A stretch of 10,619 nt of DNA from a virus (lineage: Duplodnaviria > Heunggongvirae > Uroviricota > Caudoviricetes): the IMG/VR virus record IMGVR_UViG_2778261593_000002, positions 1 through 10,619 of that record. One strand, given 5' to 3'. Each line of letters starts with the position of its first letter. Within the stretch, counting starts at the first letter, position 1. Below, piece by piece: positions 2,866 through 10,619 of this stretch. The notes below the pieces were generated by a model. That model was given only the letters and a program-made list of their open reading frames with translations. It ran no database searches and was not told the origin of the DNA. Position numbers and translations under genes: made by a program.

Positions 2866-3021
2866 TTACTTCTCAGATTCGTAGTCTACGAAGACAGCAA
2901 CCTCCGTCTGGCCGGTTCGGATTCGTACCTCGCAGAGGTCTTTCCTCGTTACCAGTGCCGTCACTATGACGGTTAAACAGATGACGATCAGGGCGATTAA
3001 CATCGCCTTTTGCTGCTTCAT
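2866..3021 (-). CDS. hok: Hok/Gef-family type I toxin (small membrane peptide), 51 aa
   Basis: MKQQKAMLIALIVICLTVIVTALVTRKDLCEVRIRTGQTEVAVFVDYESEK is near-identical to Hok/Gef/RelF family sequences recalled from memory. ATG at 3021..3019 with AAGGAG Shine-Dalgarno 9 nt upstream. Confidence 0.9.
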   Translation of the reverse strand: MKQQKAMLIALIVICLTVIVTALVTRKDLCEVRIRTGQTEVAVFVDYESEK

Positions 3022-3078
3022 AGCCTGCTTCTCCTTGCCTTTCGGCACGTAAGAGGCTAACCTACATTTGTGAGACAT
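2866..3078 (-). CDS. mok: Mok-like in-frame N-terminally extended reading frame sharing the hok stop codon (70 aa)
   Basis: ATG at 3078..3076 with GAGG about 9 nt upstream; in frame with hok and adds 19 residues (MSHKCRLASYVPKGKEKQA). This mirrors the mokC/hokC arrangement (longer frame sharing the 3' end). Confidence 0.55.
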   Translation of the reverse strand: MSHKCRLASYVPKGKEKQAMKQQKAMLIALIVICLTVIVTALVTRKDLCEVRIRTGQTEVAVFVDYESEK

Positions 3079-3120
3079 AGATTGGGCCTCAGATTAATGT
3101 TAAGCGTCTTGCAGGACGCG
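3035..3120 (+). ncRNA. Candidate Sok-like antisense RNA region (promoter plus RNA) opposite the mok translation initiation region
   Basis: Plus strand TTGCCT (3035-3040) - 17 nt - TAACCT (3058-3063) would start transcription near 3070, antisense to the mok Shine-Dalgarno/ATG (3076-3095). A hairpin GCGTC-TTGCAG-GACGC lies at 3104-3119 but no clean U-run follows. Weak evidence. Confidence 0.25.
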
Positions 3121-3179
3121 TAATGTTAACTGGGGCTTTTCTCTATCTGCCTTTTGGTGTTCATGCCTGAGGCAGATAG

Positions 3180-3225
3180 CCTCAAGCACCCGCAGCAATT
3201 CTACTTAACTCTCCTTTTCCCGCAA
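3180..3225 (-). promoter_or_regulatory. Putative hok/mok promoter and mRNA 5' end
   Basis: Minus strand TTGCGG (3225..3220) - 16 nt - TAGAAT (3203..3198); predicted start near 3191, which coincides with the 5' partner (3193..3180) of the fold-back pairing. A 9-bp hairpin CTATCTGCC / GGCAGATAG (3144-3179) lies in the leader. Confidence 0.4.
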
Positions 3226-8058: not shown

Positions 8059-8151
8059 GAGTCGCTCCATAAAACTGAACGTCAAAAGTTTAATAATCAA
8101 AACCAAAAAAAGTCAAGAAACAAAACCATCTGTGTTTTAAAATCAAAACAT
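8059..8151. promoter_or_regulatory. Divergent immunity control region (OR-like): PR-like and PRM-like promoters with a palindromic operator
   Basis: Perfect inverted repeat TGTTTT-aaaatc-AAAACAT at 8133-8151, overlapping the CI start codon and a TAAAAT -10 (8138-8143). Minus strand has TTGACT at 8116..8111 followed by AT-rich -10 candidates for the cro-like gene. No Shine-Dalgarno precedes the CI ATG, suggesting a leaderless transcript. Confidence 0.55.
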
Positions 8152-8788
8152 GAGCAAGCAAACTATATCTGAACGCATAACCCAACGTATGCATGCGCTA
8201 AACCTGAAAGGCAAAGACCTTGTCAATGGCACTGGCGCATCAAAAGGCTCCGTAAGTCAATGGATGAACGGTGGAGGAGCGCCGTCCTCGCGTTACATAA
8301 GTTCACTGGCAAAAATATTGAAAGTAAACGAAAATTGGCTTCTTAATGGAGGAGAGTTAAATACAGGTGATTCGCTTGATCTATCTTTACCGCCGATAAA
8401 AACGGTTCCGCTACTATCACTTCAGCAGGCAGCAAGCTGGAGTGATTATATGAAAAATTCCTCAATAACCTCTTGTGTGCAGCTTGTCGGAGAAATCCCG
8501 GTCAATACCTTTGCAGTTGTTCTAGAGAGTGACAGTATGTCAACATCTGGTGGGGGAGTTTCCATCCCAAATGGTTCAACAGTTTTTGTTGATCCCGATC
8601 GAACCGTACAACCAGGAAATATTGTCCTTGCCTTACCCAAAGGGACCACAACACCTGTCATTCGTAAACTGGAGATAGAAGGGCCGGATATTCTTTTAGT
8701 CCCCACGAATCCTCGCTACCCTTCAATTATGCTGGATGATCTATCTTGCATATTGGGCGTATGCTTTAAAATTCAACAAGATATTTAA
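8150..8788 (+). CDS. CI-type prophage repressor with N-terminal HTH and C-terminal S24 (LexA-like) autopeptidase domain, 212 aa
   Basis: N-terminal HTH (ISERITQRMHALNLKGKDLVNGTGASKGSVSQW); C-terminal ESDSM...VFVDPDR...VIRKL...LVPTNPRYPSI parallels lambda CI motifs GDSM / VDPE / KKL / LNPQYPMI. Confidence 0.85.
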   Translation: MSKQTISERITQRMHALNLKGKDLVNGTGASKGSVSQWMNGGGAPSSRYISSLAKILKVNENWLLNGGELNTGDSLDLSLPPIKTVPLLSLQQAASWSDYMKNSSITSCVQLVGEIPVNTFAVVLESDSMSTSGGGVSIPNGSTVFVDPDRTVQPGNIVLALPKGTTTPVIRKLEIEGPDILLVPTNPRYPSIMLDDLSCILGVCFKIQQDI

Positions 8789-8854: not shown

Positions 8855-8901
8855 TGTTTTGATAAAAAAACATTGACCTGAAAAGTTCGTTTTTCTAAAC
8901 T
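8855..8901 (+). promoter_or_regulatory. Promoter of the ydfABC-dicF-dicB-like operon with a second copy of the operator palindrome
   Basis: TTGACC (8873-8878) - 17 nt - TAAACT (8896-8901), preceded by an A-tract. Operator-like TGTTTT-gataaa-AAAACAT at 8855-8873 overlaps the -35 and has the same half-sites and spacing as the site at 8133-8151. Confidence 0.5.
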
Positions 8902-9080: not shown

Positions 9081-9236
9081 ATGGATACTATCGATCTTGG
9101 CAACAACGAATCTCTGGTGTGCGGCGTGTTTCCCAACCAGGACGGCACATTCACCGCGATGACGTATACCAAAAGCAAAACGTTTAAAACCGAAAATGGT
9201 GCCCGTCGCTGGCTGGAAAGAAACTCAGGTGAGTGA
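9081..9236 (+). CDS. YdfA/YdaF-like small protein, 51 aa
   Basis: ORF 9000..9236 trimmed to ATG 9081 with GAGG 7 nt upstream; size and position as first gene after the repressor match ydfA of the Qin dicB operon. Identity is inferred from position and size, not sequence recall. Confidence 0.55.
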   Translation: MDTIDLGNNESLVCGVFPNQDGTFTAMTYTKSKTFKTENGARRWLERNSGE

Positions 9237-9237
9237 T

Positions 9238-9366
9238 ATGGATTTCGACACAATCATGGAAAAGGCTTACGAAGAATACTTCGAAGGCCTTGCCGAAGGC
9301 GAAGAAGCTCTCAGCTTCAGTGAGTTTAAACAGGCGCTTTCCAGTTCGGCAAAATCTAACGGCTGA
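9238..9366 (+). CDS. YdfB-like small acidic protein, 42 aa (below the ORF-track cutoff)
   Basis: ATG at 9238, 1 nt after the upstream stop, with AGGTGAG upstream; translation MDFDTIMEKAYEEYFEGLAEGEEALSFSEFKQALSSSAKSNG; TGA at 9364-9366. Confidence 0.5.
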   Translation: MDFDTIMEKAYEEYFEGLAEGEEALSFSEFKQALSSSAKSNG

Positions 9367-9396: not shown

Positions 9397-9612
9397 ATGA
9401 AGAAACAAGAACCCGTCATCATCGCGCCAGACTATACCGATGATGAAATTTACGAATGGATGTGCGGGAAGATACGCGCCATTAATGACCTGAAGCAGGC
9501 TGCTGACTACAAAGAGCGCCTCTCTAAAGAGCTGGCGTCAGCGGAGCAGGATATTACCTCTCTGGCAAAAAACGCGGCATTAAACGTTTCGCGAGTGATT
9601 GCAAACTACTGA
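9397..9612 (+). CDS. YdfC-like small protein, 71 aa
   Basis: ATG 9397 with GAGGAA 9 nt upstream; third small gene of the operon, matching ydfC in position and size. Confidence 0.55.
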   Translation: MKKQEPVIIAPDYTDDEIYEWMCGKIRAINDLKQAADYKERLSKELASAEQDITSLAKNAALNVSRVIANY

Positions 9613-10009: not shown

Positions 10010-10337
10010 CCTCCTGAGGGTTGTTAATTAAGGAGTTCTCCACGGGTCAGGTGGAGTGCGTGCGCCGGACACGGGTGAGCATCCGGCACTGACAGTTTAC
10101 TGAAAGGATATATCCCTGAAAAGTCAGGGCATAACGCGAAAGCGCACGGCGAAGTTATTTCTCCCTCTGTTGCGTGCCACCGGCATCTTCGACCGTGCGC
10201 TTCCGGTTGTGGCAATCCGCGAAATGGCGCGGCGGTAAGTATGGCGGGGTTATTCTTTCCCCGTTGAGGACACCGGGTTGTCAGGTTGACCATACGCTTA
10301 AGTGACAACCCCGCTGCAACGCCCTCTGTTATCAATA

Positions 10338-10394
10338 TTCTGGTGACATTTGGCGGTATCAGTTTTACTCCGTGACTGCTCTGCCGCCCTTTTT
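10338..10394 (+). ncRNA. dicF: DicF small regulatory RNA with its Rho-independent terminator
   Basis: TTCTGGTGACATTTGGCGGTATCAGTTTTACTCCGTGACTGCTCTGCCGCCCTTTTTT matches the E. coli DicF sequence as I recall it with one or two substitutions; GGCGG...CCGCC stem followed by a T-run; position between ydfC-like and dicB-like genes. Confidence 0.8.
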
Positions 10395-10574
10395 TAAAAG
10401 TGAATTTTGTGATGCGGTGAATGCGGCTCAGCGCACGCGGAACAGTTAAATCGGTAAAGCGGTCATTTGCTGAGTAACGGGAATGCTCTGTATCCGGCGT
10501 TAATTGTTAACTGGTTAACGTCACCTGGAGGCACCAGGCACTGCATCACAAAATTCATTGTTGAGGACGCGATA

Positions 10575-10619
10575 ATGGAAAAGTTATCATACAATGCCAG
10601 TACGTCTGAACTTCGTTTC
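10575..10619 (+). CDS. Window-truncated start of a DicB-like cell-division inhibitor gene
   Basis: ATG 10575 with GAGGA 7 nt upstream; MEKLSYNASTSELRF shares about 7 of 15 residues with the N-terminus of E. coli DicB as I recall it (MKTLLPNVNTSEGCF), and sits downstream of DicF as dicB does. Confidence 0.4.
   Translation, partial: MEKLSYNASTSELRF

What the first reader, a model, noticed from the sequence alone, without database searches (positions are those of the whole stretch)
10338..10619. Conserved DicF next to a divergent dicB-like gene
DicF is nearly identical to the sequence I recall from K-12, whereas the downstream ORF N-terminus (MEKLSYNASTSELRF) is only about half identical to DicB. 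The sRNA appears far more constrained than the protein, and the dicB homolog may have altered target specificity.
Basis: partly seen in the sequence, partly recalled or inferred. Interest (0 to 1): 0.35.

Follow-up and report, generated by a model that had tools for sequence, protein, structure and literature searches.

The report
Ordinary DicF plus common DicB allele
The window ends with a normal copy of the prophage small RNA DicF followed by the first 15 codons of a genuine, already annotated variant of the cell-division inhibitor DicB; the "conserved RNA, divergent protein" contrast is mostly ordinary prophage mosaicism, so the finding is real but ordinary.

Summary
DicF lies at 10338-10389 (Rfam 77 bits; 51/52 identical to K-12). 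An ORF starts at 10575 and is cut after 15 codons by the end of the contig.

E. coli prophages identical over the last ~520 nt show the full gene. It is a 62-aa protein (WP_032083068.1), gapless and 55% identical to K-12 DicB, and well above the Pfam and NCBIfam DicB cut-offs. It is followed by ydfD.

This allele occurs in 528 of 5,426 complete E. coli genomes, including O157:H7, and is always annotated dicB.

The contrast is only partly a matter of constraint. Synonymous divergence jumps from 0-0.17 (ydfA, ydfB, 5' ydfC) to 0.5-0.7 (dicB, ydfD, exonuclease), so a mosaic joint sits at the dicB start codon. Within the old segment DicB is weakly constrained (dN/dS about 0.6, against 0.11 for the exonuclease).

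The DicF slot is itself swappable, and sRNA type and DicB allele reassort.

"Altered target specificity" is untested and mostly disfavoured. Twenty-three residues are invariant, and three alleles co-reside in one host. One lead remains: Ser replaces the mutationally critical Leu5.

Verdict: already known, low interest.

The parts
8150..8788 (+). CI/LexA-type prophage repressor (HTH plus Peptidase_S24). It sits at the DicA position, upstream of the dicBF-type operon.
   Evidence: Pfam PF00717 49.4 bits and HTH_3. Same position as dicA in K-12 Qin.
8873..8901 (+). Promoter-like site and candidate equivalent of dicBp (the PL-like early-left promoter). Weak evidence.
   Evidence: Consensus scan, 9/12 match. 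It lies between the repressor gene and ydfA, as in K-12.
9081..9236 (+). ydfA (DUF1391), first gene of the operon.
   Evidence: Pfam PF07151, 101 bits.
9238..9366 (+). ydfB homologue.
   Evidence: The ORF translation contains MDFDTIMEKAYEEYFEGLAEGEEALSFSEFKQALSSSAKSNG. The gene is annotated ydfB in the syntenic loci.
9397..9612 (+). ydfC-like gene. The 5' part is shared with K-12 and the 3' part is divergent.
   Evidence: In the proxy prophage STEC316, the ydfC 5' part has dS 0 and the 3' part dS 0.86 against K-12.
10024..10337 (+). Conserved ORF-free structured leader upstream of DicF. It is the precursor region that contains the RNase III and RNase E processing sites in K-12.
   Evidence: Outside one ~40-nt variable patch it is 97-100% identical to K-12 and STEC316. 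The 103-aa minus-strand ORF here has no Pfam match. The 190-nt and 53-nt DicF species are described in PMC10448788.
10338..10389 (+). DicF sRNA, canonical, in the A11 form.
   Evidence: RF00039 at 77 bits, E 4.8e-16. 51/52 identical to K-12. The fold has a 5' single-stranded arm, a terminator hairpin at 10352-10388 and a U-run.
10396..10562 (+). Structured DicF-dicB spacer, i.e. the dicB leader. It is closed by a 24-nt long-range helix (10396-10419 with 10539-10562). Positions 10403-10552 are STnc100-like below threshold.
   Evidence: Inverted repeat, 88% complementary. MFE fold z = -4.65. RF02076 at 31.6 bits against a gathering score of 47, E 4.9e-5.
10563..10567 (+). Shine-Dalgarno GAGGA of dicB.
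   Evidence: Read directly from the sequence. It lies 7 nt before the ATG.
10575..10619 (+). dicB, the first 15 codons (MEKLSYNASTSELRF) of the window-type allele, cut by the contig end.
   Evidence: The DNA is identical to STEC316 and to L005/L006, where the ORF is 62 aa. That ORF scores PF05358 127 bits and NF049927 121.8 bits.

Best explanation
The window's 3' end is the standard dicF-dicB segment of the early-left (PL-like) operon of a lambdoid E. coli prophage.

How it most likely works (inferred from K-12 biology, not tested here):
- When the CI-type repressor is lifted, a polycistronic ydfABC-dicF-dicB-ydfD transcript is made.
- RNase III and RNase E release DicF. DicF represses ftsZ through its 3'/loop region and represses metabolic mRNAs through its 5' arm.
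- The structured spacer presents dicB for translation.
- DicB binds MinC and takes it to ZipA at the septum, which blocks division.

What the ORF is: a common, already annotated DicB allele (class A, WP_032083068.1).

Why DicF looks conserved and DicB divergent, three reasons:
1. A mosaic recombination joint lies at the dicB start codon. The leader and DicF share recent ancestry with K-12, and are also constrained as RNA. The dicB-ydfD(-exonuclease) block belongs to an anciently diverged allelic lineage.
2. DicB is a small protein under weak purifying selection outside a fixed core.
3. The sRNA slot and the DicB slot are independently exchangeable modules between conserved linkers.
For: Identity of the parts:
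- DicF.
- DicB full length via DNA-identical loci. Family cut-offs exceeded. 55% gapless identity to K-12 DicB.
- The downstream ydfD/DUF1482 gene overlaps dicB as in K-12.

Prevalence: 528 of 5,426 complete genomes, all annotated dicB.

Mosaic joint:
- Nucleotide identity is 98% for DicF, 100% for the 87 nt before the ATG, 73% for dicB and 75.5% for ydfD.
- dS is 0.17 / 0.04 / 0 for ydfA / ydfB / 5' ydfC, against 0.50 / 0.69 / 0.50 for dicB / ydfD / exonuclease.

Weak constraint: dicB has dN/dS 0.61 against K-12 and 0.2-0.5 among the other alleles, against 0.11 for the exonuclease. Codon-position differences are 16/18/17 for dicB against 7/8/33 for the exonuclease.

The gene is still functional:
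- 23 invariant residues in 21 distinct sequences.
- All 40 complete class-A copies sampled have an intact 62-codon frame.

Module reassortment:
- Class A occurs with DicF-A11 (32 loci), DicF-G11 (3), alt1 (2) and alt2 (2). alt1 and alt2 are mostly found with K-type DicB.
- Chimeric alleles P0008 and P0011 exist.

RNA-level reasons for conservation of the non-coding parts: the long closing helix and fold z = -4.65, the STnc100-like match, and published RNase III/E processing (PMC10448788).
Against: - No experiment or expression data were examined for this allele.
- The window holds only 15 codons. The full-length statements rest on other prophages that are identical over the last ~520 nt.
- Pairwise dN/dS on a 62-codon gene has a large sampling error. 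No formal recombination or site-model test was run.
- The near-perfect conservation of the leader could be due to RNA constraint alone rather than recent shared ancestry. The low dS of ydfA and ydfB argues for shared ancestry but does not prove it for the leader.
- Ser5 replaces a Leu whose Ala substitution inactivates K-12 DicB (PMC4967827), so equal activity of this allele is not assured.
Confidence: 0.82

Rival explanations
1. Pure differential constraint. DicF and dicB share one history, and the RNA is simply under much stronger purifying selection than the protein.
For: DicF copies are very uniform: 104 canonical copies differ from the window's at no more than 4 of 52 positions. DicB has a high dN/dS of 0.61.
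Against: - Synonymous sites of dicB are themselves diverged (dS 0.50), while upstream protein-coding genes of the same operon have dS 0-0.17.
- The drop in identity begins exactly at codon 2 and spans dicB and ydfD.
- sRNA type and DicB allele reassort.
- The DicF slot holds non-DicF hairpins in 75 or more viral contigs.
Confidence: 0.1
2. Neo-functionalised DicB. The class-A allele has changed partner or potency. For example it may bind MinC or ZipA differently, or be specialised for ManYZ-linked phage exclusion rather than division arrest.
For: - The N-terminal ~13 residues are essential in K-12 DicB and L5A abolishes toxicity (PMC4967827).
- Class A has S5 and only 7/15 N-terminal identities.
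- Codon 6 is tri-allelic (C/Y/R) within the class.
- Several alleles are kept side by side in one chromosome, which could reflect non-redundant roles.
Against: - The core is invariant, including an every-third-residue stripe in the tail (M1, L4, N7, T10) and E12, F15-V19, F26, E28-I31, N42, C45, I46, S48, A51, R52.
- Natural chimeras join a K-type N-terminus to an A-type C-terminus.
- dN/dS is below 1 in every comparison.
- All co-resident alleles face the same MinC and ZipA.
Confidence: 0.15
3. Decaying gene. The divergent dicB is a relaxed, non-functional remnant in a cryptic prophage.
For: dN/dS is relatively high. Within class A there are more non-synonymous than synonymous variant states, 9 against 4.
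Against: - All 40 complete class-A copies in viral contigs have an intact 62-codon frame.
- The allele is annotated as an intact CDS in 528 complete genomes.
- The length is strictly conserved and 23 residues are invariant across alleles.
- The RBS and the leader are perfectly conserved.
Confidence: 0.04

Closest known systems
dicBF operon of cryptic prophage Qin, E. coli K-12 (ydfABC-dicF-dicB-ydfD-ydfE, repressed by DicA)
   Same: - Same gene order and strand.
- DicF is 51/52 identical.
- The leader and the dicB 5' UTR are near-identical, including the long RNase III-type helix.
- DicB has the same length, gapless, with the same invariant core.
- ydfD overlaps downstream in the proxy loci.
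   Different: - DicB is only 55% identical (73% at the nucleotide level). ydfD is 75.5% identical at the nucleotide level.
- A convergent small-gene pair is inserted between ydfC and the leader.
- The repressor is a full HTH + Peptidase_S24 CI-type protein rather than the short DicA.
RefSeq WP_032083068.1, 'cell division inhibition protein DicB', from E. coli STEC and O157:H7-type prophages
   Same: The window's 15 codons and the ~520 nt before the contig end are identical to loci that encode this protein.
   Different: None detectable. The window simply ends inside the gene. Most class-A copies, O157:H7 included, carry C6 instead of Y6.
Lambda Kil and Rac KilR (other prophage early-left division inhibitors)
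   Same: They occupy the same operon position, are expressed on derepression, and block FtsZ-ring function (background: PMC3961180, listed).
   Different: They are unrelated in sequence. Kil acts via ZipA/FtsZ without MinC. No homology was tested or claimed here.

Membership tests
DicF sRNA (Rfam RF00039) | Covariance-model score at or above the gathering threshold (48 bits) over the full model. | tested here: met
   77.0 bits, model positions 1-52 of 52, E 4.8e-16.
DicF sRNA (Rfam RF00039) | A 5' single-stranded arm followed by a GC-rich terminator hairpin and a U-run. | tested here: met
   The MFE fold gives the same structure as K-12 DicF, -15.9 kcal/mol.
DicF sRNA (Rfam RF00039) | The ftsZ-pairing 3'/loop region is retained. 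| tested here: met
   Positions 12-52 are identical to K-12. Duplex energy with the ftsZ leader is -36.6 against -38.5 for K-12 DicF; the alternative slot RNAs are no better than shuffles (a weak test).
DicF sRNA (Rfam RF00039) | Located in a dicBF-type operon between ydfC and dicB, and released by RNase III/E processing. | tested here: inconclusive
   The position is met. Processing cannot be tested with these tools; it is known for K-12 only (PMC10448788).
DicB (Pfam PF05358 / NCBIfam NF049927) | Profile score above the curated cut-offs over the full length. | tested here: met
   PF05358 scores 127.1 bits (cut-off 27). NF049927 scores 121.8 bits (cut-off 100). Both cover residues 1-62 of 62. 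The test was made on the full ORF from loci identical to the window over its last ~520 nt. The window itself holds only residues 1-15.
DicB (Pfam PF05358 / NCBIfam NF049927) | A ~62-aa protein immediately downstream of the DicF slot and structured leader, overlapping a ydfD (DUF1482) gene. | tested here: met
DicB (Pfam PF05358 / NCBIfam NF049927) | Conserved core residues shared by all alleles. | tested here: met
   23 invariant columns in 21 distinct sequences. The window's 15 residues carry M1, L4, N7, T10, E12 and F15.
DicB (Pfam PF05358 / NCBIfam NF049927) | Leu5, shown by mutagenesis to be required for toxicity of K-12 DicB. | tested here: not met
   The window has Ser5. L5A is inactive in PMC4967827. 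This residue comes from one mutagenesis study and is not a family-defining position: it varies between natural alleles.
DicB (Pfam PF05358 / NCBIfam NF049927) | MinC-dependent, ZipA-targeted inhibition of cell division. | not testable with these tools
   This needs expression in wild-type and minC strains. No solved DicB structure exists and the fold search is uninformative.

The most novel reading that the evidence does not exclude
dicB-ydfD may be an anciently diverged allelic cassette whose classes (A, K, C) are kept side by side in single E. coli chromosomes because they are not functionally equivalent. Class A carries Ser5 and a hypervariable residue 6 in the essential N-terminal tail. 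It would then differ from K-12 DicB in potency or in partner use: MinC/ZipA-mediated division arrest versus ManYZ-linked phage exclusion. The sRNA slot upstream (DicF, alt1 or alt2) would be a second, independently reassorting payload slot.
Probability: 0.15. Interest if true: 0.45.

Novelty: already known. Interest (0 to 1): 0.14.

Why it matters
It matters little as a discovery. DicF and DicB are well studied, multiple dicBF copies in pathogenic E. coli are published (PMC5069750), and this exact DicB allele is a RefSeq protein found in about 10% of complete E. coli genomes.

The useful residue is methodological. A "conserved RNA next to a divergent protein" pattern in a lambdoid prophage should first be read as a mosaic joint, by checking synonymous sites, before invoking different selective constraint.

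A modest open question remains. No natural DicB allele other than K-12's appears to have been tested. The N-terminal tail that is essential in K-12 is the most variable part of the family.

Tried and rejected
- **Extending the ORF in its own genome.** Impossible: the window is the entire 10,619-bp record.
- **First Python attempts.** A fuzzy-regex script timed out and annotated-record loci were missing from the box. I replaced these with BLAST, anchors and tool-made alignments.
- **Word-indexed protein search.** It returned only close relatives plus chimeras. It did not reach K-12-type DicB, so allele diversity was gathered from loci instead.
- **Species breadth.** Only Escherichia and Shigella were found, plus one 'Veillonella' MAG scaffold that is almost certainly binning contamination. 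No distant homologues were found.
- **Structure route.**
  - The AF2 model is a three-helix bundle, but only 1 of 5 models is confident (pLDDT 82 against 63-65).
  - Foldseek against the PDB gave nothing below E = 3.
  - No DicB sequence relative exists in the PDB. No interface mapping was therefore possible.
- **Positive selection as the cause of divergence.** Rejected at the whole-gene level, since every pairwise dN/dS is below 1. Site-level tests were not run.
- **Host-target polymorphism as the driver.** Rejected: K-type, METLLPN-type and A-type DicB co-reside in one chromosome.
- **Literature search for the alternative slot sequences.** No paper holds them.

Full report
**1. What is there**

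Rfam's DicF model (RF00039) matches window 10338-10389 on the + strand over its full length, at 77.0 bits (gathering score 48) and E 4.8e-16. I fetched K-12 MG1655 for comparison rather than rely on memory. Against it the 52 nt are 51/52 identical; the one change is A for G at DicF position 11, window 10348. The RNA folds like K-12 DicF, with a 5' single-stranded arm, a GC-rich terminator hairpin and a U-run.

Downstream, GAGGA (10563-10567) precedes an ATG at 10575. The reading frame gives MEKLSYNASTSELRF and then runs off the end. The window is the entire record, a 10.6-kb IMG/VR fragment, so the ORF cannot be completed in its own contig.

**2. Completing the ORF**

The window's last ~520 nt are identical to prophages in complete E. 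coli genomes (STEC316, BMH-17-0027) and to IMG/VR contigs L005 and L006. There the ORF is 62 aa: MEKLSYNASTSELRFEIGVITGDKTFIEDAIKQRKLEQDLLNEVCIPSMLARLDLLQKGYKQ. This is RefSeq WP_032083068.1, annotated 'cell division inhibition protein DicB'. It overlaps a DUF1482/ydfD gene and is followed by a large exonuclease gene and an excisionase gene.

- It scores 127 bits on Pfam DicB (cut-off 27) and 121.8 bits on NCBIfam NF049927 (cut-off 100), end to end.
- Against K-12 DicB it is 34/62 identical (55%), with the same length and no gaps.
- The N-terminal 15 residues are 7/15 identical.

**3. How common**

The class-A dicB coding sequence is found at 95% identity or more in 528 of 5,426 complete E. 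coli genomes, including O157:H7 strains. It is always annotated dicB. The leader/DicF/dicB segment as a whole matches 4,717 of 5,426 genomes. DicB relatives were found only in Escherichia and Shigella. Multiple dicBF copies in pathogenic strains are already published (PMC5069750). This is a known gene and a known allele.

**4. Why DicF looks conserved and DicB divergent**

I profiled the class-A locus (STEC316) against K-12 across the operon.

| Segment | Nucleotide identity | dS | dN/dS |
|---|---|---|---|
| ydfA | 95% | 0.17 | not computed |
| ydfB | 98% | 0.04 | not computed |
| 5' part of ydfC | 100% | 0 | not computed |
| DicF | 98% | non-coding | |
| 87 nt before the dicB ATG | 100% | non-coding | |
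| dicB | 73% | 0.50 | 0.61 |
| ydfD | 75.5% | 0.69 | 0.32 |
| exonuclease (first 420 nt) | 87% | 0.50 | 0.11 |

The first difference falls at codon 2 of dicB. Neutral (synonymous) divergence therefore steps from 0.17 or less to 0.5 or more exactly at the dicB start. That is the signature of a lambdoid mosaic joint, not of unequal constraint on a shared history.

Within the old segment a second effect is visible. DicB's differences are spread evenly over codon positions (16/18/17, against 7/8/33 for the exonuclease). Comparisons among the other allele classes give dN/dS of 0.2-0.5. DicB is thus weakly constrained, but nowhere does dN/dS exceed 1.

**5. The non-coding parts have their own reasons to be conserved**

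- The ~300-nt leader contains the region from which RNase III and RNase E cut the 190-nt and 53-nt DicF species in K-12 (PMC10448788).
- The DicF-dicB spacer is closed by a 24-nt long-range helix (10396-10419 with 10539-10562, 88% complementary).
- The whole 263-nt stretch folds far better than shuffles (z = -4.65).
- It resembles the Salmonella sRNA family STnc100 below threshold (31.6 bits against a gathering score of 47, E 5e-5).

**6. The locus is modular**

In 140 dicB loci fetched from viral contigs and species genomes, DicB falls into three classes:

- class A (window type);
- class K (K-12 type, including the METLLPN sub-form);
- class C (METLL[LI]N type).

All are 62 aa. Twenty-three columns are invariant: M1 L4 N7 T10 E12 F15 E16 I17 G18 V19 F26 E28 D29 A30 I31 N42 C45 I46 S48 A51 R52 G59 Q62.

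The sRNA slot is also polymorphic. Between conserved flanks it holds one of the following:

- canonical DicF, in an A11 or a G11 form;
- one of at least two other terminator-hairpin RNAs (alt1, alt2), which score below Rfam's DicF threshold (26-44 bits);
- nothing at all, in some K-type loci where homology starts only about 130 nt upstream of dicB.

Class A is usually linked to DicF-A11 (32 of 41 loci). It also occurs with DicF-G11, alt1 and alt2. alt1 and alt2 mostly precede K-type DicB. Chimeric proteins with a K-type N-terminus and an A-type C-terminus exist (P0008, P0011). 'Conserved DicF next to divergent DicB' is therefore one combination among many, produced by two independently assorting modules. 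Earlier agents of this scan reached the same modular reading on other windows. I treat those notes as leads only; the numbers given here are my own.

**7. Does the allele have altered specificity?**

This cannot be tested computationally here. No DicB structure is solved. The AF2 model shows three helices (11-21, 24-36, 42-57) and a low-confidence N-terminal tail, but it is confident in only one of five models, and it has no informative structural neighbours.

Evidence that leans against altered specificity:

- The invariant core includes a regular stripe in the tail (M1, L4, N7, T10).
- Natural chimeras exist.
- dN/dS is below 1.
- In the single STEC316 chromosome, K-type, METLLPN-type and A-type DicB co-reside and face the same MinC and ZipA. 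Host-target variation therefore cannot be the driver.

Evidence that leaves the idea open:

- Yang et al. (PMC4967827) found the first ~13 residues of K-12 DicB essential and L5A inactivating.
- Class A has Ser5.
- Residue 6 is tri-allelic (C/Y/R) within the class.

This is a legitimate but small lead.

**8. Mechanism (inferred from K-12 work, not tested here)**

The upstream repressor is a full HTH + Peptidase_S24 CI-type protein, unlike the short DicA. Derepression is therefore probably SOS-linked. The polycistronic early-left transcript would then yield DicF, which represses ftsZ and metabolic mRNAs, and DicB, which delivers MinC to the septum via ZipA. Together they would arrest division during induction. 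DicB may also give ManYZ-linked exclusion of superinfecting phages (PMC6832061).

**9. Verdict**

The feature is an ordinary, already annotated dicF-dicB module. The contrast is explained chiefly by mosaicism, with weak constraint on a small protein as a second factor. Interest is low.

Noticed in passing
L038:1260-1330, L043:1260-1320, L048:1270-1335 (and 75 further viral contigs, L141-L215): The DicF slot, between conserved flanks, holds other terminator-hairpin RNAs (alt1, alt2) with different 5' arms and loops. They fall below Rfam's DicF threshold (26-44 bits), are unannotated in complete genomes (alt1 is in 158 genomes), and show no better-than-random complementarity to the ftsZ leader. 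Earlier scan notes already propose a modular sRNA cassette.
   Followed up: partly
L048 / L186 (IMGVR_UViG_2778261593_000004, 12717 bp): A second IMG/VR contig ends at exactly the same base, 15 codons into the same dicB allele, but carries an alt2 sRNA instead of DicF. This looks like a recurrent assembly or prophage-calling break point inside repeated prophage sequence.
   Followed up: no
window 10590-10592 (dicB codon 6): Codon 6 of class-A DicB is tri-allelic in the population: TGT/TGC Cys (most copies), TAC Tyr (this window) and CGT Arg. It lies in the N-terminal tail that is essential in K-12 DicB.
   Followed up: partly
P0008, P0011: Natural chimeric DicB proteins join a K-12-type N-terminus to a class-A C-terminal part. 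This shows intragenic recombination between alleles.
   Followed up: no
L049, L052, L054 and about 10 other K-type loci: In these K-12-type dicB copies, homology to the dicBF leader begins only about 130 nt upstream of the ATG. There is no DicF slot at all; unrelated sequence lies upstream.
   Followed up: no
window 10403-10552: The DicF-dicB spacer matches the Salmonella sRNA family STnc100 (RF02076) below threshold (31.6 bits, gathering score 47). It is closed by a 24-nt helix whose 3' arm ends 1 nt before the dicB Shine-Dalgarno sequence.
   Followed up: partly
window 3016-3191 (-) and 2866-3078 (-): A hok/sok-type toxin-antisense module. Rfam sok scores 121.7 bits, with an overlapping mok/hok-like ORF.
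   Followed up: no
window 8150-8788 (+): The repressor at the DicA position is a full CI/LexA-type protein with a Peptidase_S24 domain. This dicBF operon is therefore probably SOS-inducible, unlike K-12 Qin, where an antirepressor (Rem) is needed.
   Followed up: partly
L130 (JAGZPX010000007.1, 'Veillonella parvula' MAG): A scaffold binned as Veillonella carries an E. coli-type dicB locus. This is almost certainly binning contamination.
   Followed up: no
PMC4967827, Table 1: The DicB mutagenesis paper lists a 'T4A' mutant, although residue 4 of K-12 DicB is Leu (MKTLL...). Residue numbering in that table should be used with care when mapping it onto alleles.
   Followed up: no
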